DNA of 64,000 bases. Source: Actinomycetota bacterium. Its GTDB lineage: Bacteria; Actinomycetota; CADDZG01; WHSQ01. How positions within the stretch are numbered: the first letter of the stretch is position 1; every line of letters begins with the position of its first letter. Location of the stretch: assembly GCA_050693935.1 (NCBI GenBank), contig JBOGWU010000277.1, positions 1,289 through 65,288 of the forward strand, read 5' to 3'. Below the pieces are notes generated by a model, which worked only from the letters and a program-made list of their open reading frames with translations, ran no database searches and had not been told where the DNA came from. This document shows positions 3,938-18,380 of the stretch, piece after piece. Made by a program: the position numbers and the translations under genes.

Positions 3938-4291
3938 TCACGAGGCGCCGGCGGCGGTTAGCGCGTCGGCCTCGGTGTCGTAGATGCCCACGGCCTCATC
4001 GAGGCGCGTCAGCTCGAATATCTGGCGGTAGTGATCGGTGAGCCCGAATGCGAACAGCCGTTGCTTCTGGCGGTTGGTGCGAACCAGCAGCGTGACCAGG
4101 AGGCCGATGCCCGAACTGTTCATGTATTCGAGGTCGGTGAAGTTCAACAAGATCACCTGGGGCCGGGACTCGTTCGCTTCGGCGAAGGCACTCATGAGCG
4201 CATCATCCGAGGCCGCGGTCACCTCACCCTTGATGTCGATGATCGCGGCGCCTGGTCCTGCGTCACGAACGCCTAGCACTTCGTTCGTCAT
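3938..4291 (-). CDS. STAS-domain anti-sigma-factor antagonist (SpoIIAA/RsbV-like)
   Basis: 117 aa. The motif LNFTDLEYMNSSGIGLLVTL contains the conserved phosphorylatable Ser context (MNSSG). Confidence 0.85.
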   Translation of the reverse strand: MTNEVLGVRDAGPGAAIIDIKGEVTAASDDALMSAFAEANESRPQVILLNFTDLEYMNSSGIGLLVTLLVRTNRQKQRLFAFGLTDHYRQIFELTRLDEAVGIYDTEADALTAAGAS

Positions 4292-4359: not shown

Positions 4360-4713
4360 CTAGGCTTTTGCTGCGAGTCCCTCGACCGCGCCGGCCTCAT
4401 CTCCGTGAATGTCGATGAAGTCCGACAGGCGGGTGATGTCGAAGATCTCCTTGTAGTGATCCATCAGCCCGAAGGCCCTGACCGCCTTGTTGGTTTCGCG
4501 CGCTCGACCGAGCAACCCGACGATCAGCGCTATCCCGGTCGAATTGATGTACGTCGCCTTCGAGAAGTTGAGGACGACCACCGACGCGTCTCCCACCGCA
4601 TCCCAGGCCGCCTGCAATGCCTTCTCGGCGGTTCCGTCGAGCTGACCGGCAAGGTCGATGATCGCGACGTCTCCAGTGTGGCGAACGCTGGCCACGAAGG
4701 CATTAGCGTCCAT
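4360..4713 (-). CDS. STAS-domain anti-sigma-factor antagonist (second copy)
   Basis: 117 aa, LNFSKATYINSTGIALIVGLL. Its start overlaps the stop of the upstream PP2C/kinase gene by 11 nt. Confidence 0.85.
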   Translation of the reverse strand: MDANAFVASVRHTGDVAIIDLAGQLDGTAEKALQAAWDAVGDASVVVLNFSKATYINSTGIALIVGLLGRARETNKAVRAFGLMDHYKEIFDITRLSDFIDIHGDEAGAVEGLAAKA

Positions 4714-6316
4714 GGGCGTCCCCTTTCAGGTGGAAGGTGAGTTCGACGGTGCGAGTGCTGCCATCACTTGTTACGTCCAGATCGTCGACCATGCTCTCGA
4801 TGAGGAACAGCCCCCATCCGCGCGGCTTCTGGCGGCCCTCGAGCTTGGCCTCGAGATTAGGCGCTTCCGGGTGAGCGAGTATTTCCGATCCACCCGTATC
4901 CGTGATCCGCACCCGAAGGTCGCCGCCGGCCACCTCGGCCACGATGCCTACCGGAATCAGCGGATCGTTGTGGTTGCCGTGCTCGATGGCGTTCATGGTT
5001 GCCTCGGCTACCGCGGTCTTGAGTCGTTCGAGCTGAGCGGCAGGCAGGCCGAGATCCACCACCGCGTCGGCAACCATCGCGAGCGCCTTCCGTTCGTTGC
5101 CCGGCTCACTGGGGAGGTCGAATTCGACGAGCACCCCGCTCGTGTTCTGATCCTCCATCGCACCAGCTTGCATCGCGTGCCCGGAGCGCTGCAAGGTCAC
5201 GAGGGTGATGTCGTCCTCTTGGTCCCACGCCGGCCCCACGAACCCGTCCAGGGCTTCCAGCAACTGGTCGATCAGGTCCTCGCCCCCGCGTCCCTCGCCG
5301 ACGATGCCCATCAGGCGGGGAAAACCGAACATCTCGCGCTCGGGGCTGTGAGCCTCGGCCAGGCCATCGGAGTGCATGAGCATGCTGTCCCCCGGCTCGA
5401 GCGTCGCCAGCTTTTCCTCGTAAGACATGTCGGGGAGCAATCCCAGCGGCATGCCCGTGGCGCGCAACTCGATGGTGTCGCCGCCGCTGCCCACGTAGGG
5501 AAGGTTGTGACCCGCATTGGCGAAGCGCAACGTGCCCGCAACCGGATCGAGGACCGCGTAGAGGCAGGTAACGAACATCTTGGGAGGCATGTCATCGACC
5601 AGCAGCGCGTTTACCCGCTCGAGCACCTTTGAGGGTGAGACCAGCCTGGGGGCCTCGGCCCTCAGCAGACTGTGAGTCGTGGCCATGACCAGCGCCGCCG
5701 GGACGCCCTTGTCGGTGACGTCGCCGACGACTATCCCGATCTTGTTGTCGGGGAGCTCGATGAAGTCGTAGAAGTCGCCCCCCACCTCGCGAGCGGGCCG
5801 GTAGTAGGCGGCAACGTGCCATCCCGGAAGGTCGGGGAGGTCGCGCGGCAGAAACTGCTGCTGGATGAGCTGTGCCACCCGCAACTCCTGTTCCACGCGC
5901 TCTCGCTCGCGAGCCTGGCTCTCCTGCTGGCGCACCAGCTGGGCCACGCGCACCGCGGGTGCCGCCTGTCCCGCCAGCGCGTCCAGCAGCTTGCGGTCGT
6001 CGGCGGAGTAGTCCTGTTCGCTGAGCCTAGGCCCGAGATTCAGGAGCCCTACGAGCTCGCCTTGGGTAACCAGCGGAACCACTATCCGAACTCCGGCCTC
6101 GAGGAGCTCCTCGCGTGCCGGCGAGTCCAGATGGAGGGATTCGAGCTCGACGGCGCCGGCCGCGGATTGGAAGTAGGCCAGGATCGGGTCATTGGGCGCG
6201 ATATCGACCGGAGCGACCTCCATGTCCCGGCGCGCAGGGGTGGAGTCGGCGTCGACCCTGACCTGCTCCCGGCGACGCCCTATGAAACGCCTCAACACAC
6301 CCGCTCCGGCACTCAT
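4703..6316 (-). CDS. Fusion protein with a GAF-like N-terminus, a PP2C (SpoIIE/RsbU-type) phosphatase and a C-terminal RsbW-like HATPase anti-sigma kinase domain
   Basis: 537 aa. The PP2C block is GGDFYDFIELPDNKIGIVVGDVTDKGVPAAL...FANAGHNLPY...LMHSDGLAEA...DDITLVTLQR. The C-terminal block is AVAEATMNAIEHGN...RVRITDTGG...GWGLFLIESMVDDLD. The SD aaaggag lies upstream of the ATG at 6314-6316. Confidence 0.85.
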   Translation of the reverse strand: MSAGAGVLRRFIGRRREQVRVDADSTPARRDMEVAPVDIAPNDPILAYFQSAAGAVELESLHLDSPAREELLEAGVRIVVPLVTQGELVGLLNLGPRLSEQDYSADDRKLLDALAGQAAPAVRVAQLVRQQESQARERERVEQELRVAQLIQQQFLPRDLPDLPGWHVAAYYRPAREVGGDFYDFIELPDNKIGIVVGDVTDKGVPAALVMATTHSLLRAEAPRLVSPSKVLERVNALLVDDMPPKMFVTCLYAVLDPVAGTLRFANAGHNLPYVGSGGDTIELRATGMPLGLLPDMSYEEKLATLEPGDSMLMHSDGLAEAHSPEREMFGFPRLMGIVGEGRGGEDLIDQLLEALDGFVGPAWDQEDDITLVTLQRSGHAMQAGAMEDQNTSGVLVEFDLPSEPGNERKALAMVADAVVDLGLPAAQLERLKTAVAEATMNAIEHGNHNDPLIPVGIVAEVAGGDLRVRITDTGGSEILAHPEAPNLEAKLEGRQKPRGWGLFLIESMVDDLDVTSDGSTRTVELTFHLKGDAHGR

Positions 6317-6346
6317 CTCATGCTCCTTTTACGCCCGTTCCGTTCC

Positions 6347-6361
6347 CGAATCGTTACGAGA
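6347..6361. promoter_or_regulatory. 15-nt motif CGAATCGTTACGAGA (palindromic core TCGTTACGA), copy 1, in the divergent intergenic region upstream of the partner-switching operon
   Basis: Identical 15-mer to 15421-15435. It lies 30 nt upstream of the ATG at 6316 on the minus strand. The core is TCGT-N-ACGA. Confidence 0.4.
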
Positions 6362-6505
6362 GCCCGTAGGGGCAAAACTTTCATCTCCGGCAATCCCAGA
6401 CAACCGCCATTAAGAGGCTCAGAGGCGTCACACCCACCGAATAGCCTGATCCTGCCCTGAGCGTCCGCGCCGCTCCGCTTGCCCCTATCGAAGGAGAAGA
6501 CCAAA

Positions 6506-6899: not shown

Positions 6900-8117
6900 T
6901 CATCTCGAATCTCCTCCACCGCTCTCGCGAGCTTCGGTGGCCAGCCACAGCGAAGCCTGAGATGGGTTGATGGTCGAGTCGACCACGTTCACGAGGTCTG
7001 TGGTGAGTACCTCGAGGTCCACTTCGCGCCGGAGTCGAGCACCGAAATCGTTGAGGGTGCGTTCGGCATCGTAGCGACTGCGATTGAAGCGCCGGTCGAC
7101 CAGGGATTGCAACCTGGCCTTGAGGGGGCCGAAGGCCGCAATCACGCCGAGGGTCGAGGCGGCCACGATCACGGGCGAGTCCTCGCCGAGCGGAAGCACC
7201 GACTGCAGCGCCAGCACCGCCAGGAGGTAGCCGCCGGCCAGAATGGCGGAGAGCAGTCCGTAGGACACCGTCCGGCTGATGATCCGGTCTATGTCGTACA
7301 GCCGGTACCGGAGGATCGCGATGCCGACCGCCGCGGGAATAGTGAGGAACGCGGCGGTGGAGAGCAGTTGCCTCCAGAACCCGGACACGGGGATGAACGC
7401 GTTAACGATGAAGTCGGCCAGCACCAGAGCGCCGGCCAAGAGCAGCCACTTGATCTGCAGGCGCTCGACCCCGGATGACCTTCGCCACCGGAGAAGCAGC
7501 GACACGACGGAGGCAAGGAATCCAATCGCGATCAAGGCGAGAGAAACCGGTATCAAGACCCCGGCGATGCTCTCCGCGTCGATGGACTCAGGATCGATCA
7601 GCAGGGTCCTCCCCCTGAACTCCCAGGTTGCGATCGCGACCGGCCCCGTGACCAGCAAGCCGGCAACCAGGGGCGGCAACAAGGCCCAGCGCCAGCCTCG
7701 GTGCCAGAACCGGCCCGAGGGGAACAGCAGGAACAGGGGCGGCAGCAGGACGATCGGCCAGATCCAGATCCACTGGTAGAACCAGGCCGCCGCGGCCGCC
7801 CCCGGCAACGACTCGGGATCGACCACTAGGCCGCGAAGCGCGTCCTCCCCGGCGAAGTTGCCGGCGAACCCCACCAGCGGCGCCAGCAGAAACAGCCAGC
7901 CGATCGGATTCTCCGGACGGCGCGCGGTGATCAGGGCTCCGATGACCGGAAAAGCAAGAAACGTGATCCTGTCGATGTAGTCGCCGGCGCGCGAGCCGAA
8001 CTCGCGGGGGAGCTCGGCGGAAGATGACCAGGTCATTAGCGCGAGCGTCATGGCGGTAATGACCACGCCCAAAGCGAACAACGACCAGGCGAGCCTCGCC
8101 GCATTGCGCCGGGTCAC
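6900..8117 (-). CDS. Array paralog 7 (last in transcription order): polytopic membrane protein, sensor-module-like
   Basis: This is the C-terminal 405 codons of the 819-aa ORF 6900..9359. The GTG at 8115-8117 overlaps the stop of paralog 6 (GTGA). Motifs present: ARRPENPIGWLFLL, LLFPSGRFWHRGWRW, LRWRRSSGVERLQIKW, LRYRLYDIDRIISRT, VDRRFNRSRYDAERT, ASLWL. Confidence 0.8.
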   Translation of the reverse strand: MTRRNAARLAWSLFALGVVITAMTLALMTWSSSAELPREFGSRAGDYIDRITFLAFPVIGALITARRPENPIGWLFLLAPLVGFAGNFAGEDALRGLVVDPESLPGAAAAAWFYQWIWIWPIVLLPPLFLLFPSGRFWHRGWRWALLPPLVAGLLVTGPVAIATWEFRGRTLLIDPESIDAESIAGVLIPVSLALIAIGFLASVVSLLLRWRRSSGVERLQIKWLLLAGALVLADFIVNAFIPVSGFWRQLLSTAAFLTIPAAVGIAILRYRLYDIDRIISRTVSYGLLSAILAGGYLLAVLALQSVLPLGEDSPVIVAASTLGVIAAFGPLKARLQSLVDRRFNRSRYDAERTLNDFGARLRREVDLEVLTTDLVNVVDSTINPSQASLWLATEARESGGGDSR

Positions 8118-9359
8118 GGTCTTCCCCCCGAGCCACTCAGCCACAATGAGACGTGAGCCGGTTGCATTGTGGTGCGCACAACGCCGACCAGATCGGACGA
8201 CAGACTGTCGAGGTTGGTCTCCGCTCGCAGCCGTGCCGAGAAGTCGTCGATGGTCCTCGCCGCGTCGTAGCGGCTCCGGTTGAAGCGGCGGTCGACGAAG
8301 CTCTGGACCCTGGCGCGAACAGGTCGGAACAGCGCGACTACAGCGAGAGTCGACGCGGCGACAGTTATCGGTGAATCGTCTGCCACTCGAAGCAGCCTCT
8401 GCAGCGCCAGCACAAGGCCCAGGTAGCCGGCGGCCAGCACTGCAGTCACCACTCCGTAGACGAGCGTGCGATTGATGAGGCGATCGATGTCGTAGAGACC
8501 GTGTCGCACGATGCCTATTCCCTTTGCGACGGGGATGAACGTCAGGCCGAGCATGATCGCCAGGAAGCCGATTAGATCGGCGAGGCTGCCCTTGGGATTT
8601 CCGGCCACCGCAAACAAAACCTGAGCCCCCAATGAAGGCGGCGGCGAAGATCAGCACCGCAAAGACGAACCACCGAATCTGCTGGCGCTCCGAGTGTCCG
8701 GCCCGGCGCCAGCGGACCACCAACGAGGCGATCGCTCCAACCTCGGCGGCCCCGACGGCGACCATAAGCAGTGGATTGTCGGCCAATCCTCGAGCGGCCT
8801 CGATCCCCAACGGGTTAGTCATGCCCTCCACCGCGTCTATCGGTCCGGGCCGCAGCGCGAGCGCCAGGCATAAGGCTCCCAGGCCCAGCCCCGCCAGCCA
8901 CCCCACCCATCTCCAGCGAGGTGAGACCAACCTTCCGGTCGGAAACAGCAGGGTCAAGTACAAGAGAAAGCCGAATCCAGGAACGGCCACCCACAGGGTG
9001 AGCCATCCGAAGAAGGCGGCGAGAGGAAGGGAGCCTGAGCTCTCCACCGACTGGGAGGCATACGCGTCGGCGAACAGGAAGAGGCCGACCAAGAACGAGC
9101 TGCCGAGCATGAGCCAGCCTTCGGGGTTACGGCTCTTTCTAGTAGCGACCAGAGCGCCGGTGCCACCCAAGACCAGCAACCAGCCGTTGACGAGCACGGT
9201 CGCGAAGATCCCGTCCTCGAGGTGCAGGAAGAGCGAGGACAAGAACATGGCCAGCACGAGTCCGATTCCCAAGGATGGGAGCGCCGCGGCCCTGTGGCTG
9301 AGGCCGATCAATGCGCCGCGCTTCTCTATCTCATGGTCGCCGCGTTCGGTTGGAGCCAC
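8114..9359 (-). pseudogene. Array paralog 6, interrupted by a 1-nt frameshift at a C5/G5 run (8626-8630)
   Basis: The N-terminal half (frame of ORF 6900..9359, residues 1 to about 245) ends ...ERQQIRWFVFAVLIFAAAF. The C-terminal half continues in the frame of ORF 8114..8632 (GAQVLFAVAGNPKG...VRHGLYDIDRLINRT...VDRRFNRSRYDAART...AHVSLWL). Deleting one G from cattgggggctc restores a full-length paralog. The start (GTG 9359 or TTG 9311) is uncertain. Confidence 0.8.
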
Positions 9360-10531
9360 AGCGAGACGTGTGCGGGCTGCATGGTGTCACGCACGACTCC
9401 GACCAGATCGGTGGACAGGCTGTCGAGGTTGGTCTCGGCCCGCAAGCGCGCGGAGAAGTCATCGATGGTCCGGATGGCATCGAAGCGCCGGCGGTTGAAC
9501 CTCCGGTCCACCACCGCCTGGATTCGGTTTCTCAGCGGTCGGAACAGGGCGACCATCCCGAGCGTCGAGGCGGCGACGGTCACGGGCGAGTCATCAGACA
9601 CGGGAAGCGCGCCCTGCAGCAACAGAACCGCACCGAGGTAGCCCAATGCGAGCACCGCGCTCAGTCCACCGTAGACAATCGTTCGATTGATGATGCGGTC
9701 GATGTCGTAGAGCCTGTAGCGGAGCATGGCGATTCCGATGGTGATTGGAATCGACGTCACGGCCATGGAGAAGATGCCGTTCACCAGGTTGACCGTCGCA
9801 TCGGTCTCCCCGATGATTGCGAGCACCACCCCCTGCAGCAAGAGGTTAAGAACGACAACCACCCCGGCATAGGAGAACCACTTGAGTTGTTGGCGTTCGA
9901 CCGCGCGCGAGCGCCGGAAGCGCACGATCACAGAGACCACGGAAGCCACCACGCTGAACACGATCAGGACCTCGCCTACCCACAGAGCTACCTGCAGTGG
10001 AATGTCGAGCACCTCGATCCCGTAGGGGTTGGAGATCCTTCCATTGGTGTCCTGGAGCGCGCCCGGTGAAAAGGCGTAAGCGGACACGACCAAGGTCAGA
10101 CCAAGGCCCGTGGTCCAGACCAGCAACCTCCATCGGTGGGACAGGGGACGGCCGGTGGGAAACAGCTGGAGCACGAAGAGCAAGGGAGCAAGGGCGAGCG
10201 ACCAGATGAAGCTCCCCGCCCAGTCGACGAAGTCGCCCTCTGCACCTCGAGGAGTAGCCGGAGTCATCTCTGCATGTGTCGTCAAGAACGCCGCCATCAC
10301 TCCAAAGACTCCGAGCAGGCAGAGAATCCAGCCGATGGGGTTGTCGGAGCGGCGTGACGCAACGAGCCCGCCAACCACTCCACAGCCGATGACGAATATG
10401 CCAAACGGGATGATGTTGATGAGATCCGGCGACCGATCGCGCGTGAGAGAAAAAACGACGACGGCCAGCATTCCGACCAAGATGATGGCGGTCAGTCCCC
10501 ACGCGAGGGAGGCCTTTCCTCGGCCCCTCAT
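9326..10531 (-). CDS. Array paralog 5: polytopic membrane protein, sensor-module-like
   Basis: This is ORF 9326..10555 trimmed to the ATG at 10529-10531, which overlaps the upstream stop (ATGA). Motifs present: SRRSDNPIGWILCL, QLFPTGRPLSHRWRL, RFRRSRAVERQQLKWF, LRYRLYDIDRIINRT, VDRRFNRRRFDA, AHVSLWL. Confidence 0.8.
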   Translation of the reverse strand: MRGRGKASLAWGLTAIILVGMLAVVVFSLTRDRSPDLINIIPFGIFVIGCGVVGGLVASRRSDNPIGWILCLLGVFGVMAAFLTTHAEMTPATPRGAEGDFVDWAGSFIWSLALAPLLFVLQLFPTGRPLSHRWRLLVWTTGLGLTLVVSAYAFSPGALQDTNGRISNPYGIEVLDIPLQVALWVGEVLIVFSVVASVVSVIVRFRRSRAVERQQLKWFSYAGVVVVLNLLLQGVVLAIIGETDATVNLVNGIFSMAVTSIPITIGIAMLRYRLYDIDRIINRTIVYGGLSAVLALGYLGAVLLLQGALPVSDDSPVTVAASTLGMVALFRPLRNRIQAVVDRRFNRRRFDAIRTIDDFSARLRAETNLDSLSTDLVGVVRDTMQPAHVSLWLQPNAATMR

Positions 10532-11727
10532 GCGCTCGTTCCAGGTTTGATCCAAAGCGACAGGTGGGACGGCCGCACCGTGTCGTCCACCACGTTGAGC
10601 AGATCGCTGCTGAGCGCGTCGAGATCGACCTCTTGCCGCAAGCGCTGGCCGAACGATTCGATCGTCAGCGCGGCGTCGTAGCGACTTCGATTGAAGCGGT
10701 GATCCACTGCTGCCTGAACGCGGTTCCGCAAGGGACGGAAGGCGGCGACAACTGCAAGCGTCGACGCCGCCACGATCACGGGGGAGTCGTCCCGGACGGG
10801 AATCATCGACTGAAGCGCGAGCACCGCCAACAAGTAGCCCCCGGCCAGGATCGCGGTCAGCAGACCGTAGGCGAGTGTGCGACTGATCAGACGGTCGATG
10901 TCGTAGAGCCGGTACCGCAGCATGGCAACGCCGATGGTGATCGGAATCGACGTGACCGCGACTGAGAATAGACCTTCAACGACGTCCACCGCGGCGCTGC
11001 TCTCGTCGGCGAAGGAGAAGACCACCATCTGCACCATCAGGCTGCCGACAACCAGCACTCCGGCATAGGAGAACCACTTGAGCTGCTGGTGCTCCACACC
11101 TCTCGATCTTCGGAAGCGAATGACCAGGGAAACGAGAGACATCACGACGCTTGTCGTGATGAGTAACCCGGCCGCCGCGGACATGACCTTCAGCGGCACC
11201 TCGAGGACATCGATGCCATAGGGGTTCGTCGTCCTCGGGTTCGAGTTCGCGAGCGCGCCGGGAGCGAGAGCGGGAGCCAGGACGGCAAAGGCGATACCGA
11301 GGCCGGTTGTCCATACCAAAGCGTTCCACCGGCTCGTCAGGGGTCGCCCGTTAGGAAAAAGCTGAAGCACGAAAATTGCGGGGGCGAAGGCCAGCAACCA
11401 GATGAAGGCGAGGATCCAGTCGACGAAGCGTCCATCGCCACCGGATGTGAGCGGGGCGCGGTCTATGTAAAGCGACGAGAGCGTGGCCAGCATCCCGAAG
11501 AAGCCGACAAGACAAAGTATCCATCCGATCGGATTGACCGAGTGCCGCGAAGCGACGAGTGCCCCGACCACCGCGCACCCGCCGATGAACACCACGAACG
11601 TAACGGTGTTGACGATCTGACCGGATAAACCCCCCTCCGTGAGGTCGAGGACGACGACAAAGAGCGTCCCAACCCCGCTGATCGCGCACAGCGACCACGC
11701 AATTGCGGCAGCTTTTCGAGCGATCAT
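10528..11727 (-). CDS. Array paralog 4: polytopic membrane protein, sensor-module-like
   Basis: This is ORF 10528..11751 trimmed to the ATG at 11725-11727 (ATGA overlap). Motifs present: SRHSVNPIGWILCL, QLFPNGRPLTSRWNA, RFRRSRGVEHQQLKWF, LRYRLYDIDRLISRT, VDHRFNRSRYDAALT, SHLSLWI. Confidence 0.8.
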   Translation of the reverse strand: MIARKAAAIAWSLCAISGVGTLFVVVLDLTEGGLSGQIVNTVTFVVFIGGCAVVGALVASRHSVNPIGWILCLVGFFGMLATLSSLYIDRAPLTSGGDGRFVDWILAFIWLLAFAPAIFVLQLFPNGRPLTSRWNALVWTTGLGIAFAVLAPALAPGALANSNPRTTNPYGIDVLEVPLKVMSAAAGLLITTSVVMSLVSLVIRFRRSRGVEHQQLKWFSYAGVLVVGSLMVQMVVFSFADESSAAVDVVEGLFSVAVTSIPITIGVAMLRYRLYDIDRLISRTLAYGLLTAILAGGYLLAVLALQSMIPVRDDSPVIVAASTLAVVAAFRPLRNRVQAAVDHRFNRSRYDAALTIESFGQRLRQEVDLDALSSDLLNVVDDTVRPSHLSLWIKPGTSA

Positions 11728-12923
11728 CGGTTGACTCCAGGTTTGATCCACAGCGACAAGTGCGCAGGTCGCACGGTCGTATCCACGACCCGCATCAGGT
11801 CTGCCGTCAGGGCCTCGAGATCGACCTCCTCGCGCAGGCGCCGGCCGAAGGACTCGATAGTCAGCGCGGCGTCGTAGCGGCTGCGGTTGAAGCGGCGGTC
11901 CACGATTCGCTGGATGCGAGCGCGTAGAGGGCCGAAGGCCGCGACCACCAGCAGGGTCGATACGGCCACGATCAGCGGCGACTTCTCAGGAAGAGGAAGG
12001 ATCGACTGCAGCACCAGAACCGACAGGAAGTAGCCGCCGACCAGCAGTGAGGTTAGAAGCGCGTACGCGACCGACCTGCTAATGATGCGGTCCACGTCGT
12101 AGAGGCGGTAGCGCAGCACCGCCATCGCGATCGACACGGGAATGCCCATCACCAGAAGCGGGAACAAGAACCCCGGCAACCTCACCAAATCACCGAGCGG
12201 AACCAATACCGCGAAGGCGCTTCCCGCGAGAGCGACCCATTTGAGCTGCTGGCGCTCCTGTGCCGCGGCGCCCCGATATCTGACCACCAGTGACGCCGCA
12301 CTCAGGACGATGGCGACTAGAAGCACCGGCCCCAGCGCGGTGAACACGGTGTCTTCAGTATCGCCGAGGCCGGAGATCCCGATCGGGTTGGGGATCGAGT
12401 AACCCTCGCCCACCAAGCGTTCCTCCACCATCGAGAGAACGGCAGCGAATACCACAAGCGCTCCCGACAGCCATGCCACCGGGCGCCAGCGCGGGGAGGG
12501 AAGTCGTCCGTTCGGAAACAGCAGTAGCAGGAATGTAGGGATGACCATGATCAAGGGGAACCAGGCCCATGCCTCGATCCAAGCAGCCAGCGTCGCCCCG
12601 GGGGTGGCTTCATCTCGGTAAACCAGCCCGTATTGCGCGTAACTCGCCCCCCATATCAGGATCCCGGTCTGGAAGCCCACCCACAACATCAGCCACGCGA
12701 TGAGATTGTCGGGGCGCCGTTGCACGATCAGTGCGCCCATCGCTGGAAACGCGGTGAAGGCTGCCATGAGCAGCAGGTCCTCCAGCCATCCACCATCCGG
12801 TGCCGTGCCGCTTACGCGGTCGAGAATTTCGCTCGTCACCGTCATGCCGATGGTGAACGCGAGCAACACCCAGGCTGCGACTCGAAGGCGGCGCTGGCGC
12901 CGCGTCAGGCTGTCGGTAGTCAT
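11724..12923 (-). CDS. Array paralog 3: polytopic membrane protein, sensor-module-like
   Basis: This is ORF 11724..12947 trimmed to the ATG at 12921-12923 (ATGA overlap). Motifs present: QRRPDNLIAWLMLW, LLFPNGRLPSPRWRP, VRYRGAAAQERQQLKWV, LRYRLYDVDRIISRS, VDRRFNRSRYDAALT, AHLSLWI. Confidence 0.8.
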   Translation of the reverse strand: MTTDSLTRRQRRLRVAAWVLLAFTIGMTVTSEILDRVSGTAPDGGWLEDLLLMAAFTAFPAMGALIVQRRPDNLIAWLMLWVGFQTGILIWGASYAQYGLVYRDEATPGATLAAWIEAWAWFPLIMVIPTFLLLLFPNGRLPSPRWRPVAWLSGALVVFAAVLSMVEERLVGEGYSIPNPIGISGLGDTEDTVFTALGPVLLVAIVLSAASLVVRYRGAAAQERQQLKWVALAGSAFAVLVPLGDLVRLPGFLFPLLVMGIPVSIAMAVLRYRLYDVDRIISRSVAYALLTSLLVGGYFLSVLVLQSILPLPEKSPLIVAVSTLLVVAAFGPLRARIQRIVDRRFNRSRYDAALTIESFGRRLREEVDLEALTADLMRVVDTTVRPAHLSLWIKPGVNR

Positions 12924-14131
12924 GTCTGTCGCTCCGGGCTGATCCACAGCGAGACGTGGGTGGGTGCCATCGTGTGATCCACGACCGCGACCAAGCCGGA
13001 GGCGAGCGCGTCTAGCTCGACTTCGTTTCTGAGCCGCGCTCCGAAACTCTCGATGGTGTGCTCGGCGTCGTAGCGGCTGCGGTTGAAGCGGCGGTCGACC
13101 AGATGTCTGATCCGAGAACGAAGAGGTCCGAACGCGGCGACGACGGCCAGAGTCGACGCGGCCACGATGACCGGAGAATCGTCACGGACGGGAAGCACCG
13201 ATTGCAGTGCCAGCACCGCCACGAGGTAGGCGCCGGCCAGCAGCGCGGTGAGCAGGCCGTAGGCCAGCGTGCGGCTGATGATGCGATCGATGTCGAAGAG
13301 CCGGTAGCGAAGCATCGCAAAGCCCGTGGCAATTGGAAGCAGCAGGACGCCAACGCTTGCGAGCAGTTCGTTACCTGCTCCCTCCGATGAGGACATGGGG
13401 CCCACAACGGTTCCGACCACCGCGACGGCAAGGGCGAACAGGAACCACTTGAGTTGAAGTCGCTCGACCTCACCCGCGCTCCGATAGCGAAACACCAGCG
13501 ATGCGAAGGAGCCGAACAGTGCGGGGATCATGAAGGCATAGGGAAGGTCCCAAAGCACCGCGGCAAGTCCCTCCAACTCCGGAGTCTCATCGAGCAACAT
13601 CGGCCCGCGATATGGCCACGTACCGACTGCCCCGATTAACGTCGCGGCCACTCCGGCGAGCGCGAGTCCTTCCGCTACCCGCCAGCGTCGCGAGGGAAGC
13701 GCTCCGTCGGGAAAGCGAAGCACGGTAATGGCCGTCCACGACATGATCGGGGTCAATACCAAGTGGTAGATGCAGGATGCCGCCGCTCCACCCTGGAGCG
13801 TCCCCGGCTCGACAATGAGAGAGCGCGCCGCGTACTCGTACGCGAAGGTTCCTACCAACCCCGTCAGGCCAACGAGTACGAACAGCCGTGCCACTACGTG
13901 ACCAGGTCTTCGTGACAGGACGGTGAACCCCACAACCACGAAGACGAACTGGGATAGCGAATAGATCGGATCGCTAACATCGAGGTAGTCAGCGATGCCG
14001 GCGAGTTCTTCGGGCCTCATCAGCCCGAACGCCACAGTGATGCCCGCGAGACCCGCGCTCCCAAGCAACGCTAGTGCCCGCACGACGCTCGGCCACGCCG
14101 TGCCCGGTCGCGCCAGCGCCGTCGTCTTCAT
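12920..14131 (-). CDS. Array paralog 2: polytopic membrane protein, sensor-module-like
   Basis: This is ORF 12920..14158 trimmed to the ATG at 14129-14131 (ATGA overlap). Motifs present: SRRPGHVVARLFVL, LRFPDGALPSRRWRV, FRYRSAGEVERLQLKWF, LRYRLFDIDRIISRT, VDRRFNRSRYDAEHT, THVSLWI. Confidence 0.8.
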   Translation of the reverse strand: MKTTALARPGTAWPSVVRALALLGSAGLAGITVAFGLMRPEELAGIADYLDVSDPIYSLSQFVFVVVGFTVLSRRPGHVVARLFVLVGLTGLVGTFAYEYAARSLIVEPGTLQGGAAASCIYHLVLTPIMSWTAITVLRFPDGALPSRRWRVAEGLALAGVAATLIGAVGTWPYRGPMLLDETPELEGLAAVLWDLPYAFMIPALFGSFASLVFRYRSAGEVERLQLKWFLFALAVAVVGTVVGPMSSSEGAGNELLASVGVLLLPIATGFAMLRYRLFDIDRIISRTLAYGLLTALLAGAYLVAVLALQSVLPVRDDSPVIVAASTLAVVAAFGPLRSRIRHLVDRRFNRSRYDAEHTIESFGARLRNEVELDALASGLVAVVDHTMAPTHVSLWISPERQT

Positions 14132-15330
14132 CGAGCCTTCTCCGACGAGCGCAGCCACAACGACGCATGCGCGGGGTTCACCGTGCTGCGCACGACGGCG
14201 ACTAAATCGCTCGAGAGATCGTCGAGGTTCGTCTGCGCGCGGAGGCGAGTGCCGAACTTGTCGATCTCTCGCTCGGCGTCGTAGCGAGTGCGGTTGAATC
14301 GTCTTTCAACCCGCTCGCGGATACGCGCTCGCAAAGGACCGAAGACGGCAACCACGGCGAGAGTCGAGGCGGCAACGATCAGGGGCGAGTCATCCGGAAT
14401 TGGCATCACCGACTGGAGCGCGAGCACCGCGAGTAAGTAACCGCCGGCGAGCACGGCCGTCAGCGCCGAGTACGAGATGGTCCGGCTGACCAGGCGATCG
14501 ATGTCGTACAGGCGGTAACGGAGAATCGCCACGCCCGCGCAGATCGGAGGAGCCGACAACAGGATCGGATCGACGAACGGTAGGCGTCCGCCTGCGACCT
14601 GATCGAGAATTCCCTGCCCGACGAAACCCACCAACATCAGGACACCAGCGAAGGTGAACCATTTGAGCTGCTGGCGCTCCTCACCCCTCGAACGCCGGAA
14701 CCTGGTCACCAGGGCAGTCAGCGACAACACCACGAGCGCCAAGGCCCCGGCAAACAAAACGGCGCCGATGGCGCCCTCCTCTACGTCGCGCAGACCCGGG
14801 ATACCGATGGGGTTGATGAGCACGATCTCGCTTCCGGGAAGCTCGATCTCGGACTCCAGCGCCCCGAGCAGCACGAAGCTTCCCGTCCAGACGATGGTGG
14901 CGCGCCATATCCATGCAAAGCGTCCGGGGAGTGGTCTGCCCGTCGGAAAGACCTGCGGAAGCAGGAAGAGCAAGCTGGCCAGGTAAGCGAGCCAGTACCA
15001 CTCGATCACGCTTGCTAAGAGCCCCGGTGACGGCAGCGACCCCGAGCCGGACGCGAGTTCGTAGCGCGCGTAGGCCTCGACCGCGATCCCCAGCCCCCAG
15101 CTCAGCCCCGCCAAAGTGAAAATCCACCCCACGAGGTGTCCGCCGCGCCGGACCAAAATGATCCCTCCCACCACCACGTTGGGAAGCACCGCCGCCATGT
15201 GGAACATGAGCCCGTTCGCATCGAGTTCGCCCAGTTCAGCGTGCAGAATGAGGGCCGCGATCAAGGCGACCACAGCCACGGTACCGGGAATCAGGCGCGC
15301 CTTCATCGGCGCGCTTTCTGGCCTGCTCAT
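14128..15330 (-). CDS. Array paralog 1 (first in transcription order): polytopic membrane protein, sensor-module-like
   Basis: 400-aa ORF starting at the ATG at 15328-15330 (alternative ATG at 15306). Motifs present: VRRGGHLVGWIFTL, QVFPTGRPLPGRF, TRFRRSRGEERQQLKWF, LRYRLYDIDRLVSRT, VERRFNRTRYDAERE, AHASLWL. Confidence 0.8.
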   Translation of the reverse strand: MSRPESAPMKARLIPGTVAVVALIAALILHAELGELDANGLMFHMAAVLPNVVVGGIILVRRGGHLVGWIFTLAGLSWGLGIAVEAYARYELASGSGSLPSPGLLASVIEWYWLAYLASLLFLLPQVFPTGRPLPGRFAWIWRATIVWTGSFVLLGALESEIELPGSEIVLINPIGIPGLRDVEEGAIGAVLFAGALALVVLSLTALVTRFRRSRGEERQQLKWFTFAGVLMLVGFVGQGILDQVAGGRLPFVDPILLSAPPICAGVAILRYRLYDIDRLVSRTISYSALTAVLAGGYLLAVLALQSVMPIPDDSPLIVAASTLAVVAVFGPLRARIRERVERRFNRTRYDAEREIDKFGTRLRAQTNLDDLSSDLVAVVRSTVNPAHASLWLRSSEKAR

Positions 15331-15420
15331 CGCTCCGGGCCGGCGCTATCGGTTGTCTGGATCACGCTTGCCCCCGTGATTACTCCGCTCTACGGCCCCA
15401 CTCTCTACACCTAACGTCTG

Positions 15421-15435
15421 CGAATCGTTACGAGA
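15421..15435. promoter_or_regulatory. 15-nt motif CGAATCGTTACGAGA, copy 2, in the divergent intergenic region between array paralog 1 and the SARP-type regulator
   Basis: Identical to 6347-6361 and in the same orientation. It lies 90 nt upstream of the ATG at 15330 (minus strand) and 72 nt upstream of the TTG at 15507 (plus strand). Confidence 0.4.
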
Positions 15436-15506: not shown

Positions 15507-18380
15507 TTGTCCGACTTACGACTATTTCTGCTCGGTGCTCCTGGCATCGAACGAGACGGAAGCCCCGTCGACCTCGACACGCGCAAGGCCATCGCGCTCG
15601 TCGCCTACCTGGCGATAGAGGGACAGACCTTCCGCAGAGACTCCCTGGCCGGGCTCCTGTGGCCGGAGCACGGCGGAGATCAGGCGCGCGGCGCGCTCCG
15701 GCGCACCTTGTCGACGCTCAAGAAGGGAATGGGGGGCGAGGGGGTCGAGGCCGACCGAGCCACCGTCGGCCTCACCAGCGACGCCGTTTGGACGGACGCG
15801 ACGGAGTTCCGTCGGTTAATCGAACAGAGCCAGGTCCCCTTCGCGGAAGGCGACCCGGATGCGTGCTTGGCCCTGTTAGAGCGCGCCATCCAGTTGTATC
15901 GAGGCGATTTCATGGCGGGGTTCTCGCTGCGAGACAGCGTGGACTTCGAGGACTGGCAGTACTTTCAATCCGAATCCCATCGACGGCTCATGACCGGCGC
16001 GCTGGAGCGAGCCGTTGAGTGCCTGACGATGCGCGGTCGCTTTGCGGAGGCCATCGATCGCGCTCGCCGCTGGTTATCGCTAGATTCCCTGCACGAACCG
16101 GCGCACCGCAAGCTCATGGCGTTGTATGCGTGGAACGACCAGCGCGCCAGCGCACTCAAGCAGTATCGAGAGTGCGTCGGATTACTCGATCGCGAGCTGG
16201 GTGTCCCCCCACTCGAAGAGACCACCGAGCTCTACCGGCAGATCACCGACAATCGACTCCCGGAGCCCGAGCTCCTCTCGTTGCCGCAAGAGCTCGGCTC
16301 GGTGGAGCTCGCCGGCGTGCACGCGCCCACACCTACACCACTGGTAGGTCGAACGACCGAGCTTGCGCTCCTGCTAAACGCCTACGAGTCGGTGGGCGCG
16401 GCCGGACGAGTCGCGCTCATCGAGGGCGAGGCCGGTATCGGCAAGAGCCGACTCGCCGACGAGTTCCTCGCACGGTTGCACGAGCGCGGTTCGATGACAG
16501 CAACCGTCCGCTGCCACGCAGAGGAGACTCACCTCGCCTTCGGGGTAGTCACCGGACTCCTTCGCCAGACACTCGAGGAGAAGGGAAGGGAGTGGCTTGG
16601 GGTCGTGCCCGTGCACTGGCTGAGCGAGTGTGCCCGGCTGTTGCCCGAGCTGCTGACTCTCGGCATCGACGTCCCTCCTCCCACGCGGCTGGACGACCCC
16701 GGCGCCCAGGCTCGCTTCTTCGAGGGCATAGCCAGCTTCTTGACCTCGGCGAGTAACGGGCCTCAGCGGGGAGTGCTGCTCGTCGACGATCTGCACTGGA
16801 CGGACGAATCCTCGCTGGACGCGCTCCTCTACCTTGCAGGCCGCCTCAGGGGACGGCCCCTGCTCTTGCTCGGGACCTTTCGTTCCGACGAGGTCGGAGC
16901 GTCGGCGCGTGTCCGCCGGTTGGCGACCGCGGCCGGCCAGTATTCGATAGACAACATCGAGCTCCGGCGTTTGACCCGCGACGAGGTGTCCGAGCTGGTC
17001 ACCGCCGCCCGTCCCGGCGACGCGACCTTGAGCGACCGTCTCTACGAGGAGACCGAGGGACTTCCGTTCTTCCTCGTCGAGTACCTGGCGGCGCTCGACG
17101 AGGGTGCCGATCCCGAGTCGCCGCAATGGTCACCCCCGTCGGGTGTGCGCGAGCTCCTGTCGTCGCGCGTCGAGCAGCTGAACGAAACGGCGCGACAGGT
17201 GCTCACGACCGCCGCCGTTATCGGACGGAGCTTCGACTTCGACACGGTGCGCGAGGCGGGTGGTCGCTCGGATGACGAGACCGTCACCTCTCTCGACGAC
17301 CTCGCCGCCGCGGGCCTGATCAAAGAGGTGGCGCCGGCCGGGAAGGGGTTCCCCACCTTCGACTTCAGCCACGAGGGGATCCGCCGTCTCGTCTACGACG
17401 ACGCAAGCAGCGCCCGCCGAAGGTTGCTACATAGGCGCGTGGCGGACTCGCTGGCGCGCTCCCGACGGCGCCCGGCGGTGGAGCCGGGGGCAGTCGCCCA
17501 TCACTACGAACTCGCCGGCAACGATGCCGCCGCCGCGCGCTACTACGAGCTTTCGGGGCGCAAGGCCAGTTCGTTGTTCGCGCACGCCGAGGCAATGGCC
17601 CACTTTCGCACCGCGCTTGCGCTCGGACATCCCGAGCCCGCCCGCATTCACGAGGCCCTTGCCGACATTCAGACCTTCTCCGGCGACTACTCGGGTGCGC
17701 TGATCGAATATGAGACCGCCGCGGCGTTGAGCGACCAGCACGATCTGGTAACGATCGAGCACAAGATCGGAACCGTGCACCATCGAAGAGGAGATCTCGA
17801 CTCCGCTCGCAGCCACTTCGAAGGTGCCCTGGAGCTTCTCGACGACGACGACCACGCGCGGCGATCGCGCGTGTTCTCCGACCTCAGCCTCACGGCTCAT
17901 CGCTCGGGAGAGTCCGCCACCCCGGAGCTTCTGGCGAACGAGGCCTTGGGCCTTGCCGAAAAGACCGAGGACATCAACGCGCTGGCACAGGCACACAACA
18001 TCCTTGGCATCCTGGCCAAGAGCCGGGGCGATGTGGACAGCGCGCTCGAGCACCTTCAGCAGAGCGCCGATCTGGCCAGCGATCTCAGCGACCCGACGGC
18101 TCGTATTGCGGCGCTCAACAACCTCGCACTGGCCCGGGGAGAGGCCGGTGAACGCGACGCGGCCATCGAGATCCTGAACGAGGCACTCAAACTCTGCACC
18201 GAGCAGCAGGACCGTCATCGCGAGGCCGCGTTGCATAACAACCTGGCGGACCTCTTTCATCGCAACGGAGAGCGCGAGCGCTCGATGGAACACCTCAAGC
18301 AAGCGGTTGCGATCTTCGCCGAGATCGGTTCGAAGGAGTCGACCATGCAGCCCGAGATCTGGAAGCTGGTCGAATGGTAG
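15507..18380 (+). CDS. SARP/AfsR-type regulator with an OmpR-like winged helix, a BTAD domain, a P-loop NTPase and TPR repeats
   Basis: 957 aa with a TTG start 5 nt after the SD gagggga. The N-terminal wHTH is LFLLGAPGIERDGSPVDLDTRKAIALVAYLA. The BTAD block is LYRGDFMAGFSLRD...HRKLMALYAWNDQRASALKQYRECVGLLDRELGVPP. The Walker A motif is IEGEAGIGKSRL. The C-terminus has TPR-like repeats (NILGILAKSRGDVDSALEHLQQS...). Confidence 0.85.
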   Translation: MSDLRLFLLGAPGIERDGSPVDLDTRKAIALVAYLAIEGQTFRRDSLAGLLWPEHGGDQARGALRRTLSTLKKGMGGEGVEADRATVGLTSDAVWTDATEFRRLIEQSQVPFAEGDPDACLALLERAIQLYRGDFMAGFSLRDSVDFEDWQYFQSESHRRLMTGALERAVECLTMRGRFAEAIDRARRWLSLDSLHEPAHRKLMALYAWNDQRASALKQYRECVGLLDRELGVPPLEETTELYRQITDNRLPEPELLSLPQELGSVELAGVHAPTPTPLVGRTTELALLLNAYESVGAAGRVALIEGEAGIGKSRLADEFLARLHERGSMTATVRCHAEETHLAFGVVTGLLRQTLEEKGREWLGVVPVHWLSECARLLPELLTLGIDVPPPTRLDDPGAQARFFEGIASFLTSASNGPQRGVLLVDDLHWTDESSLDALLYLAGRLRGRPLLLLGTFRSDEVGASARVRRLATAAGQYSIDNIELRRLTRDEVSELVTAARPGDATLSDRLYEETEGLPFFLVEYLAALDEGADPESPQWSPPSGVRELLSSRVEQLNETARQVLTTAAVIGRSFDFDTVREAGGRSDDETVTSLDDLAAAGLIKEVAPAGKGFPTFDFSHEGIRRLVYDDASSARRRLLHRRVADSLARSRRRPAVEPGAVAHHYELAGNDAAAARYYELSGRKASSLFAHAEAMAHFRTALALGHPEPARIHEALADIQTFSGDYSGALIEYETAAALSDQHDLVTIEHKIGTVHHRRGDLDSARSHFEGALELLDDDDHARRSRVFSDLSLTAHRSGESATPELLANEALGLAEKTEDINALAQAHNILGILAKSRGDVDSALEHLQQSADLASDLSDPTARIAALNNLALARGEAGERDAAIEILNEALKLCTEQQDRHREAALHNNLADLFHRNGERERSMEHLKQAVAIFAEIGSKESTMQPEIWKLVEW

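What the first reader, a model, noticed from the sequence alone, without database searches (positions are those of the whole stretch)
6900..15330. The paralogs look like sensor-kinase input modules that lack any output domain
From memory, the ordered motif set (RxxxNPIGWL after TM2, LFPxGRxxSxRWR, NPxGI, ERQQLKW, LRYRLYDIDR, DRRFNRxRYDA, HVSLWL) also occurs at the N-terminus of many actinobacterial membrane histidine kinases and other signalling proteins. In those proteins a HisKA/HATPase or other output domain follows the ...SLWL segment. Here every copy stops 4-12 residues after SLW(L/I). The array would then be a bank of stand-alone sensor modules that must signal through a separate partner.
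Basis: inference. Interest (0 to 1): 0.7.

Follow-up and report, generated by a model that had tools for sequence, protein, structure and literature searches.

The report
Detached membrane sensor bank, split GAF
Seven tandem genes encode ten-helix membrane sensor modules of the kind normally fused to histidine kinases, each cut off just inside a GAF domain whose remainder starts the neighbouring phosphatase/kinase, so many sensors probably feed one soluble switch.

Summary
Window 6900-15330 (minus strand) holds seven tandem paralogues of a ~400-aa, 10-TM protein. One (c6) is frameshifted. All carry the listed motifs and stop 6-13 residues after SLW(L/I).

- The module is homologous to the N-terminal input region of GAF-HisKA_3 histidine kinases (Deinococcus, Streptomyces) and of PrsK.
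- The stand-alone form dominates a very large family that no Pfam model covers (26,341 clusters at 50% identity).
- The separate partner lies next door. It is a truncated-GAF/SpoIIE(PP2C)/RsbW-like kinase protein followed by two STAS proteins, a conserved 265-aa protein and a CrtI-like oxidoreductase, with a divergent SARP-type regulator. This synteny recurs in Actinomycetota and Chloroflexota.
- Two natural fusions (919 and 910 aa), one in the same full gene context, join the module seamlessly to the phosphatase. In the 919-aa one Pfam then reads one complete GAF domain across the junction.
- So the modules end with helix 1 and strand 1 of a GAF whose remainder starts the phosphatase.

An 18-nt element precedes both the array and the phosphatase operon.

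Physical completion of the GAF in trans is inferred, not shown; an AlphaFold chimera was inconclusive.

The parts
14128..15330 (-). c1, stand-alone 10-TM sensor module (400 aa as the longest ORF)
   Evidence: ORF and translation. AlphaFold model has pLDDT 87 and ten long helices. It hits PrsK TIGR02916 positions 60-349 at E 1.7e-9.
12920..14158 (-). c2, paralogue (412 aa; likely start ATG 14131, overlapping the c1 stop by 4 nt)
11724..12947 (-). c3, paralogue (407 aa; likely start ATG 12923)
10528..11751 (-). c4, paralogue (407 aa; likely start ATG 11727)
   Evidence: It is 31% identical over 326 aa to the Deinococcus GAF-HisKA_3 kinase.
9326..10555 (-). c5, paralogue (409 aa; likely start ATG 10531)
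8114..9359 (-). c6, paralogue broken by a +1 frameshift at the G5 run 8626-8630 (414 aa if one G is removed); probably a pseudogene
   Evidence: The same G5 run is present in a second, 99.95%-identical assembly. Only the C-terminal 164 aa are called as a gene there.
6900..8144 (-). c7, last paralogue (414 aa; likely start GTG 8117)
   Evidence: Weak HisKA_7TM hit at E 7e-5.
15415..15432 (-). 18-nt cis element CGTAACGATTCGCAGACG upstream of c1, in the intergenic region shared with the divergent regulator gene
   Evidence: The same element lies upstream of first or orphan module genes in 34 places in related loci.
6341..6358 (-). Second copy of the cis element, CGTAACGATTCGGGAACG; 9 nt later comes TAAAAG, and the phosphatase ATG follows 9 nt after that
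   Evidence: Found upstream of the phosphatase gene in 24 genome loci and 51 of 71 metagenome loci.
4703..6316 (-). Soluble partner (537 aa): basic N-peptide + linker, GAF lacking its first helix and strand, SpoIIE/PP2C phosphatase, RsbW-like HATPase_c_2 kinase
   Evidence: Pfam SpoIIE 1.4e-49, HATPase_c_2 3.7e-21, and GAF_3 only at profile positions 70-127 of 129. NCBIfam hits to SpoIIAB/RsbW models. Directly downstream of module arrays in 26 of 51 genome loci with enough flank.
4360..4713 (-). STAS protein 1 (117 aa, anti-sigma-factor antagonist type, 'INSTG')
   Evidence: A STAS gene lies downstream of the phosphatase in 57 of 57 metagenome loci.
3938..4291 (-). STAS protein 2 (117 aa, 'MNSSG')
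3136..3933 (-). Conserved 265-aa protein with no family match; a regular cluster member
   Evidence: No Pfam or NCBIfam hit. Present downstream in 30 genome loci, also beside the fused gene.
1656..3083 (-). CrtI/CrtO-like FAD-dependent oxidoreductase; a frequent cluster member
15507..18380 (+). Divergent SARP/AfsR-like regulator (BTAD + AAA_16 + TPR, 957 aa)
   Evidence: Pfam, NCBIfam. On the opposite strand next to the array in 32 genome loci and next to the fused gene.

Best explanation
The array is a bank of detached membrane input modules for a partner-switching signalling cassette.

Each gene encodes a 10-TM module. TM1-TM7 and the short outer loops vary. The last two TM helices and a ~70-residue cytoplasmic tail are conserved. 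The tail ends with the first helix and first strand (..SLWL) of a GAF domain.

The rest of that GAF domain opens the soluble protein encoded just downstream (4703-6316). That protein also carries a PP2C phosphatase and an RsbW-type serine kinase, and two STAS substrates follow it.

Proposed mechanism:
- Each module offers its helix-strand tail to complete, or at least dock on, the incomplete GAF of the one phosphatase/kinase.
- This holds the soluble protein at the membrane. A conformational signal from the module then shifts the balance between phosphatase and kinase.
- That balance sets the phosphorylation state of the STAS proteins. They relay to an output that is not identified; the divergent SARP-type regulator is the obvious candidate.
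- The 18-nt element upstream of both the array and the phosphatase operon makes them one regulon.

Shown: the anatomy, homology to kinase input modules, stand-alone architecture, conserved synteny, natural fusions with one continuous GAF, and the shared cis element.

Inferred: physical completion of the GAF in trans, the direction of signal flow, the output, and SARP binding to the element.
For: Homology to kinase input modules.

Stand-alone form dominates.

Conserved synteny in Actinomycetota and Chloroflexota, in the order SARP(-) | modules x1-17 | GAF-PP2C-HATPase_c_2 | STAS | STAS | 265-aa | FAD oxidoreductase.

Reciprocal test starting from the phosphatase:
- a STAS gene downstream in 57 of 57 loci;
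- a module immediately upstream in 38 of 61 loci;
- a module somewhere in the locus in about 48 of 61.

Rosetta-stone fusions:
- P0409 (919 aa) and P0420 (910 aa) join module to phosphatase through an 11-14-residue loop, without the basic N-peptide.
- In P0409, Pfam GAF_3 covers residues 378-500 as profile 1-127 of 129, spanning the junction.
- P0409 sits in the same SARP/STAS/STAS/267-aa context, with the same cis element. P0420 is followed by a STAS gene.

Collinearity with PrsK: c1 matches positions 60-349 and the phosphatase N-terminus matches 405-470. A joined sequence gives one stretch, 120-470, at E 2e-16.

Seamless in-silico joins of the window's own pieces extend the GAF match to the whole profile for c1, c6 and c7 with GAF_3, and for c5 with PF01590. 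GAF_3 scores are 42.8, 35.9 and 37.3 bits, against 34.8 for the phosphatase piece alone.

The tail is the conserved part of the paralogues: 63% against 29% identity.

In the AlphaFold monomer the SLWL segment is low-confidence (pLDDT 52-58), while the TM core is above 90.

Shared cis element.
Against: - An AlphaFold run on c7 tail + natural linker + phosphatase 1-190 did not dock the tail (pLDDT below 50 for residues 59-108). The module side of the alignment had only seven rows and there was no genome pairing.
- The gain in GAF score from adding the tail is small (1-8 bits), and c2-c4 tails do not extend the match.
- Pfam also sees only the C-terminal half of the GAF in the fused kinases. A partial Pfam match is therefore not proof of truncation by itself.
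- Fused forms are rare: two genuine ones among the 120 best hits and none in 80 metagenome loci. They could be secondary fusions.
- About 13 of 61 phosphatase loci show no module within the flanks held.
- Many single modules sit far from any phosphatase gene.
- No sigma factor or other proven output was found in the cluster.
- There are no experimental data.
Confidence: 0.6

Rival explanations
1. The modules do signal to the downstream phosphatase/kinase, but not by completing its GAF. The conserved helical tail, or the membrane itself through the phosphatase's basic N-terminal peptide (FRRRxLGRR), is merely a docking surface. The helix-strand remnant of the GAF has no structural role in the partner.
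For: The basic N-peptide and variable linker are conserved in the split phosphatases of 22 loci and are absent from the fusions. This suggests a separate tethering device. AlphaFold did not insert SLWL into the phosphatase domain. The GAF score gains are small.
Against: In the fused P0409 the tail and the phosphatase N-terminus are read as one GAF domain, profile 1-127 of 129. S, L and W of SLWL are invariant in the seven copies and nearly invariant in 103 family members. That is hard to explain for a leftover strand.
Confidence: 0.22
2. The modules are outputs rather than inputs. They would be membrane proteins with their own transport or enzymatic function, whose expression is controlled by the SARP / partner-switching cassette, and they do not talk to the phosphatase.
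For: The modules share a cis element with the phosphatase operon, which shows co-regulation and not direction. Some sources label fragments as 'amino acid transporter'. Many single copies lie away from the cassette.
Against: No transport or catalytic family recurs among 103 members. Foldseek finds no solved fold (best E 2.7e-3, TM 0.32). The module sits at the N-terminal input position of histidine kinases and of the fused phosphatases.
Confidence: 0.1
3. The copies are decaying remnants of truncated histidine-kinase genes with no present function.
For: One copy (c6) is frameshifted, and the same frameshift is in a second assembly. All copies lack the kinase core.
Against: The same truncation point, length (~400 aa) and motifs recur in thousands of clusters across two phyla. 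The tail is strongly conserved. The genes are translationally coupled and have a conserved promoter-proximal element.
Confidence: 0.03

Closest known systems
GAF-HisKA_3 membrane sensor histidine kinases carrying the same N-terminal module (Deinococcus peraridilitoris WP_015231682.1, 717 aa; Streptomyces sp. YIM 121038 WP_138957284.1, 707 aa)
   Same: They have the same multi-TM module with the same ordered motifs (R..N.IGW, FPNGRLPS..W, NP., RF.R..G.ER.Q.KWF, LRYRLYDID). c4 is 31% identical over 326 aa at E 2e-38.
   Different: The kinases continue into a whole GAF, HisKA_3 and HATPase_c, and pair with a NarL-type response regulator. The window proteins stop after the first helix and strand of the GAF, and no response regulator is adjacent.
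PrsK, the XrtA/PEP-CTERM system histidine kinase (NCBIfam TIGR02916)
   Same: There is remote but repeated similarity of the membrane region, linker and start of the GAF: c1 matches positions 60-349 at E 1.7e-9, and 40 of 103 members hit the model. The phosphatase N-terminus matches the next part, 405-470.
   Different: Scores are far below the model cut-off (37 against 300 bits). There is no HisKA/HATPase and no PEP-CTERM context.
Fused module-GAF-SpoIIE-HATPase_c_2 proteins (P0409, 919 aa, NCBI 'SpoIIE family protein phosphatase'; P0420, 910 aa)
   Same: They align collinearly with module + phosphatase at 50-53% identity over 85-94% of the joined query. P0409 lies in the same SARP/STAS/STAS/267-aa cluster with the same cis element; only a downstream STAS gene is seen for P0420.
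   Different: They are one polypeptide with one sensor. In the window the protein is split inside the GAF, and the N-terminal piece is multiplied seven-fold.
RsbU/RsbW/RsbV and SpoIIE/SpoIIAB/SpoIIAA partner-switching modules; multidomain fusions such as M. tuberculosis Rv1364c (named from my own knowledge)
   Same: The cassette has a PP2C phosphatase, an RsbW-type serine kinase and STAS antagonists with the conserved serine motif.
   Different: Phosphatase and kinase are fused. No sigma factor gene is in the cluster. The input comes from detached membrane proteins rather than RsbT, the stressosome or an N-terminal domain of the phosphatase.
Stressosome RsbR paralogues of Bacillus (named from my own knowledge)
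   Same: The logic is the same: several paralogous sensors with variable sensing ends and a conserved end that fits a common downstream machine.
   Different: RsbR proteins are soluble globin/STAS proteins. Here the sensors are 10-TM proteins and the conserved end is a GAF fragment. There is no homology.
SARP/AfsR-type regulators and their promoters (binding-site rule recalled from my own knowledge)
   Same: The regulator is a BTAD + AAA + TPR protein. The cis element can be read as two 8-mers ending in ACG, 11 bp apart. It ends 9-10 nt upstream of a conserved -10-like (T)A.
   Different: Binding was not tested. The repeat is weak (CnnnnACG). The regulator's best NCBIfam hits are all far below cut-off.

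Membership tests
GAF-HisKA_3 sensor histidine kinase | N-terminal multi-TM input module with the ordered motif set | tested here: met
   BLASTP of c4 against WP_015231682.1 gives 31% identity over 326 aa at E 2e-38. tblastn hits two annotated kinases.
GAF-HisKA_3 sensor histidine kinase | Complete GAF domain after the membrane module | tested here: not met
   The proteins end 6-13 residues after SLW(L/I), which is GAF profile position ~28.
GAF-HisKA_3 sensor histidine kinase | HisKA_3 dimerisation/phosphoacceptor domain and HATPase_c | tested here: not met
   No such Pfam hit in any of the seven copies or in 103 family members.
GAF-HisKA_3 sensor histidine kinase | Adjacent cognate response regulator | tested here: not met
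   The neighbours are a PP2C/kinase, STAS proteins and a SARP regulator. The two reference kinases do have a response regulator next to them.
Pfam HisKA_7TM (PF16927) | Score at or above the gathering threshold (28.6 bits) | tested here: not met
   The best is c7 at 23.2 bits, E 7e-5. Only 5 of 103 members hit at E<=0.01.
PrsK (TIGR02916) | Full-length equivalog match (cut-off 300 bits) including the kinase core | tested here: not met
   Only positions 60-349 of 679 match, at 36.8 bits. 40 of 103 members match this N-terminal part.
Partner-switching cassette (RsbU/W/V type), for the cluster as a whole | PP2C (SpoIIE-family) phosphatase | tested here: met
   PF07228 at E 1.4e-49, residues 189-377.
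Partner-switching cassette (RsbU/W/V type), for the cluster as a whole | RsbW/SpoIIAB-type serine kinase (HATPase_c_2) | tested here: met
   PF13581 at E 3.7e-21. TIGR01925 SpoIIAB at 1.2e-11 and RsbW models.
Partner-switching cassette (RsbU/W/V type), for the cluster as a whole | STAS antagonist with the phosphorylatable serine | tested here: met
   There are two 117-aa STAS proteins: PF01740 at 2.5e-14 and 2.8e-9, TIGR00377 at 1e-15 and 1.1e-13. The sequences read INSTG and MNSSG. Phosphorylation itself cannot be tested here.
Partner-switching cassette (RsbU/W/V type), for the cluster as a whole | A sigma factor or other defined target held by the kinase or STAS | tested here: inconclusive
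   No sigma factor gene lies among the conserved cluster members. The rest of the window was only sampled.
Naturally split domain reconstituted in trans (split GAF) | The two fragments are contiguous in one domain in fused relatives | tested here: met
   In P0409, GAF_3 covers residues 378-500 as profile 1-127 of 129 across the junction. The alignment of tails, fusions and phosphatase N-terminus agrees.
Naturally split domain reconstituted in trans (split GAF) | The fragments associate physically and rebuild the fold | tested here: inconclusive
   The AlphaFold chimera with an unpaired, shallow alignment showed no docking and low confidence.
SARP-dependent promoter | Direct repeats at 11-bp spacing ending ~8 bp upstream of the -10 and bound by the SARP | tested here: inconclusive
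   The element is CCGTAACGnTTCnnGGACG followed 9-10 nt later by a conserved (T)A, found at 67 sites. Binding cannot be tested here.

The most novel reading that the evidence does not exclude
A signalling protein has been split by evolution inside a GAF domain. The N-terminal piece (10-TM sensor plus GAF helix 1 and strand 1) was then amplified into arrays of up to 17 divergent sensors. These compete to complete the GAF of a single soluble phosphatase/kinase. This would be natural protein-fragment complementation used as a many-to-one wiring device between membrane sensors and a partner-switching switch.
Probability: 0.4. Interest if true: 0.85.

Novelty: new variant of a known kind. Interest (0 to 1): 0.74.

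Why it matters
- The family is very large: 26,341 clusters at 50% identity, common in soil Actinomycetota and Chloroflexota. It has no Pfam model, and sources call it 'hypothetical protein'.
- This work gives the family a place as the input layer of a conserved partner-switching cassette, and a concrete, testable mechanism.
- If GAF completion in trans is real, it would be a new way to connect many sensors to one transducer. It would also be a rare natural case of a domain split into two genes that must reassemble, and a ready-made complementation pair for synthetic biology.
- The work also defines a regulon marker, the 18-nt element. It links orphan modules elsewhere in the genome to the same system.
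- The cassette includes a conserved unknown 265-aa protein and a CrtI-like oxidoreductase. These may be its physiological output.

Tried and rejected
- Pfam and NCBIfam on the seven copies gave nothing above cut-off, only weak HisKA_7TM and PrsK hits.
- Foldseek of the AlphaFold model against the PDB gave no significant match; the best hits were generic GPCR-like bundles with TM about 0.3.
- The search for homologous proteins with the C-terminal profile and with the phosphatase N-terminus returned only close fragments, so no architectures could be tabulated from them.
- A look-up of the exact c1 protein found nothing on record.
- A block alignment with module fragments was misaligned by MAFFT and was dropped.
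- The accepted chimera run was inconclusive.
- P0466 (1410 aa) looked like a fusion. It is a read-through of frameshifted tandem copies that includes the translated cis element ('RNDSRT'), so it was rejected as an artefact.
- The ~900-aa representatives with two matched stretches are most probably two tandem copies read as one, by analogy with the window's own 819-aa ORF. Their sequences were not inspected.
- Reading the cis element as an ECF or SigB/SigF-type promoter was considered and set aside, because the spacing and hexamers do not fit those consensus sequences as I recall them.
- I first read 'TAGAAAGGA' before the phosphatase ATG as a Shine-Dalgarno site. It may instead be the -10 of a leaderless or short-leader transcript. 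This is not resolved.
- Literature searches for HisKA_7TM, for partner switching with these domains, and for split GAF domains found no description of this system.

Full report
**1. What is in the sequence**

Window 6900-15330 carries seven head-to-tail paralogues on the minus strand: c1 14128-15330, c2 12920-14158, c3 11724-12947, c4 10528-11751, c5 9326-10555, c6 8114-9359 and c7 6900-8144.
- The 819-aa ORF 6900-9359 is c6 read through into c7.
- c6 changes frame at a G5 run (8626-8630). Deleting one G restores a 414-aa protein.
- A second public assembly differs by 7 bases in 14.6 kb and has the same G5 run. The frameshift is therefore probably real.
- Five of the six junctions allow a 4-nt ATGA/GTGA stop-start overlap, which is typical of translational coupling.
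Each protein stops 6-13 residues after SLW(L/I).
- The paralogues are 29% identical on average in TM1-TM7 and 63% identical in the last 139 residues.
- AlphaFold with 103 homologues gives a confident ten-helix membrane bundle (mean pLDDT 87). It is followed by three cytoplasmic helices and a low-confidence SLWL end with pLDDT 52-58.
- By the positive-inside rule the arginine-rich motifs and the C-terminus are cytoplasmic. This is my reading of the sequence.

**2. Family and architecture**

No Pfam or NCBIfam model reaches its cut-off. The weak hits go to HisKA_7TM and to the N-terminal half of the PrsK histidine kinase model: c1 matches positions 60-349 of 679 at E 1.7e-9.

Across 103 family members, 40 hit PrsK and 5 hit HisKA_7TM. 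No transport or catalytic family recurs. Foldseek finds no related solved structure.

The C-terminal profile finds 26,341 cluster representatives at E<=1e-3. Nearly all of the best 150 are ~390-420 aa with the match at the very C-terminus.

In 79 loci from species-representative genomes plus the window, 276 of 279 complete copies end within 40 residues of the profile end. Loci hold 1-17 copies. The loci come from Actinomycetota (Rubrobacteraceae, Nocardioidaceae, Kribbella, Solirubrobacterales, Acidimicrobiia) and Chloroflexota (Limnocylindria, Chloroflexia, Ktedonobacterales, Thermomicrobiales).

The stand-alone form is therefore the rule.

**3. Relation to kinases**

tblastn against plasmids finds annotated 'GAF domain-containing sensor histidine kinase' genes in Deinococcus peraridilitoris (717 aa) and Streptomyces sp. 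YIM 121038 (707 aa).
- In both, the module is the N-terminal ~400 residues. GAF, HisKA_3 and HATPase_c follow, and a response regulator gene is adjacent.
- c4 aligns with the Deinococcus kinase over 326 residues at 31% identity (E 2e-38), with the motif set conserved.

**4. The partner**

Downstream on the same strand lie, in order:
- a 537-aa protein with SpoIIE/PP2C and RsbW-like HATPase_c_2 domains, whose GAF match covers only profile positions 70-127 (4703-6316);
- two 117-aa STAS proteins (4360-4713 and 3938-4291);
- a 265-aa protein with no family match (3136-3933);
- a CrtI/CrtO-like oxidoreductase (1656-3083).

A SARP/AfsR-like BTAD-AAA-TPR regulator is divergent from c1 (15507-18380).

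This order recurs widely.
- Among the 79 module-seeded loci, the phosphatase is found in 35, the regulator in 31 and the 265-aa protein in 29 (one search counts 36, 32 and 30 including the window itself).
- The phosphatase lies directly downstream in 26 of 51 loci with at least 2.5 kb of downstream sequence. By my reading of the table, that is most arrays of two or more copies.
- Seeding instead from the phosphatase N-terminus in metagenome contigs gives the reciprocal figures. A STAS gene is downstream in 57 of 57 loci. A module is immediately upstream in 38 of 61 loci. About 48 of 61 have a module somewhere in the locus, including a variant order with modules after the 265-aa gene.

**5. The split GAF**

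The split phosphatases start with a basic peptide (FRRRxLGRR), then a variable linker, then the conserved 'APVDIAPNDPLLAYLQSA..'.

A search with an artificial join of c1 and the phosphatase found two natural fusions: P0409 (919 aa, NCBI MAG, 94% coverage) and P0420 (910 aa, forest soil).
- Their junctions are seamless. P0409 reads '...QPARVSVWLRDQTKVGAEALADIAPNDPVVAYFQSA...', with no basic peptide.
- In P0409, Pfam GAF_3 covers residues 378-500 as profile 1-127 of 129, and PF01590 covers profile 1-132 of 133. The module tail and the phosphatase N-terminus together make one GAF domain.
- P0409 sits between a SARP gene and STAS, STAS and a 267-aa gene. The same upstream element precedes it.
- P0420 is followed by a STAS gene.

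Independent support comes from two further tests.
- The PrsK model matches c1 at positions 60-349 and the phosphatase N-terminus at 405-470. A joined sequence aligns as one stretch, 120-470, at E 2e-16.
- Seamless joins of the window's own pieces extend the GAF match to the full profile for c1, c6, c7 and c5, but not for c2-c4.

The alignment of tails, fusions, kinases and phosphatase N-terminus shows the break between strand 1 and the next segment.

In the AlphaFold run the structured part of the phosphatase N-domain has only helix-strand-helix-strand-strand-long helix. The 'VDIA' segment is not paired.

**6. What is not shown**

The AlphaFold chimera was c7 tail, natural linker and phosphatase 1-190. 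It had seven rows on the module side and unpaired rows on the other. It did not dock the tail (mean pLDDT 66; residues 59-108 below 50). Paired alignments could not be submitted. Association in trans therefore remains an inference from comparative genomics.

**7. Shared cis element**

CGTAACGNTTCNNGNACG occurs twice in the window, against 0.47 expected by chance.
- One copy is at 6341-6358, 25 nt before the phosphatase ATG.
- The other is at 15415-15432, 85 nt before the c1 ATG, in the region shared with the regulator gene.

In 1.09 Mb of related loci it occurs 70 times with at most one mismatch; my estimate of the chance expectation is about 1. Of these, 64 are on the coding strand: 24 upstream of phosphatase genes and 34 upstream of first or solitary module genes. 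It also occurs upstream of 51 of 71 phosphatase genes in metagenome loci.

Aligned on the element, a conserved (T)A follows 9-10 nt later.

The element can be read as two ACG-ending 8-mers 11 bp apart, just upstream of a -10. From what I recall, this is the layout of SARP sites. Binding by the divergent regulator is an inference.

Solitary modules that carry the element are probably part of the same regulon.

**8. Mechanism proposed**

Variable membrane modules sense different, unknown, probably membrane-associated cues. Their common tail docks on, and probably completes, the GAF of the one phosphatase/kinase. This shifts the balance between dephosphorylation and phosphorylation of the two STAS proteins. 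The STAS proteins pass the state to an unidentified target, with the SARP regulator as a candidate. That would close a loop through the shared element.

My estimated probabilities:
- stand-alone input modules related to kinase sensors: about 0.9;
- the phosphatase/kinase is their partner: about 0.75-0.8;
- GAF completion in trans: about 0.4-0.45.

**9. Origin of the window**

The phosphatase is 100% identical to an NCBI protein from an Actinomycetota MAG on a 69,996-nt contig (P0388). The c6 C-terminal fragment is annotated there as a separate hypothetical protein (P0003).

**10. Verdict**

The system is best filed as a new variant of known kinds: partner-switching signalling combined with kinase-type input modules. 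It is distinguished by detachment of the input module at a point inside a domain and by its multiplication into arrays.

Noticed in passing
window 6341-6358 (-) and 15415-15432 (-); 70 sites in L001-L079; L080 1697-1714: A conserved 18-nt element, CCGTAACGnTTCnnGGACG, is followed 9-10 nt later by a -10-like (T)A. It lies upstream of the phosphatase operon, of the first module gene, of solitary module genes and of the fused gene. In many genomes it overlaps the coding tail of the last module, where it translates as 'RNDSRT'.
   Followed up: yes
window 8626-8630: A G5 run causes a +1 frameshift in copy c6. The same run is present in a second assembly (L084, GCA_975305665.1) that differs by 7 bases in 14.6 kb, so it is probably a real pseudogene rather than a sequencing error.
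   Followed up: yes
window junctions at 14128-14131, 12920-12923, 11724-11727, 10528-10531, 8114-8117: ATGA or GTGA 4-nt stop/start overlaps link successive module genes. This suggests translational coupling and start codons 8-9 codons downstream of the longest ORF starts.
   Followed up: yes
window 6479-6886 (+): A 135-aa ORF lies on the opposite strand between c7 and the phosphatase gene. It has repeated 'DLRFE'-like heptads and a C-terminal hydrophobic helix. Relatives occur only in the two closest loci (L001, L002), where the module-to-phosphatase gap is also enlarged to 490-750 nt instead of 30-150 nt.
   Followed up: partly
window 6200-6316 (-), residues 1-38 of the phosphatase: A basic N-terminal peptide (..LRRFIGRRRE.., consensus FRRRxLGRR) plus a variable linker is conserved in split phosphatases of 22 loci and absent from the two natural fusions. 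It may be a membrane-targeting or docking peptide acquired after the split.
   Followed up: partly
window 3136-3933 (-) and 1656-3083 (-): A 265-aa protein with no Pfam or NCBIfam match and a CrtI/CrtO-like FAD oxidoreductase are regular members of the cluster across phyla. They may be the regulated output.
   Followed up: partly
L018, L040, L041, L043, L050, L076, L099, L124, L132, L134, L138: An alternative cluster order exists in which the module array follows the 265-aa / oxidoreductase genes instead of preceding the phosphatase. Some loci have arrays on both sides.
   Followed up: partly
window 37924-39486 (+) and 39465-41447 (+): Two large adjacent ORFs (520 and 660 aa) lie in a stretch of strong negative AT skew, which suggests membrane proteins. 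Neither has a Pfam match at E<=1e-5.
   Followed up: no
window 26404-27957 (-), 59901-61793 (+), 24745-26058 (-): Ordinary genes elsewhere in the window: a MatE/Polysacc_synt-type flippase, a TctA tricarboxylate transporter subunit, and a protein with a C-terminal cytidine/deoxycytidylate deaminase domain.
   Followed up: no
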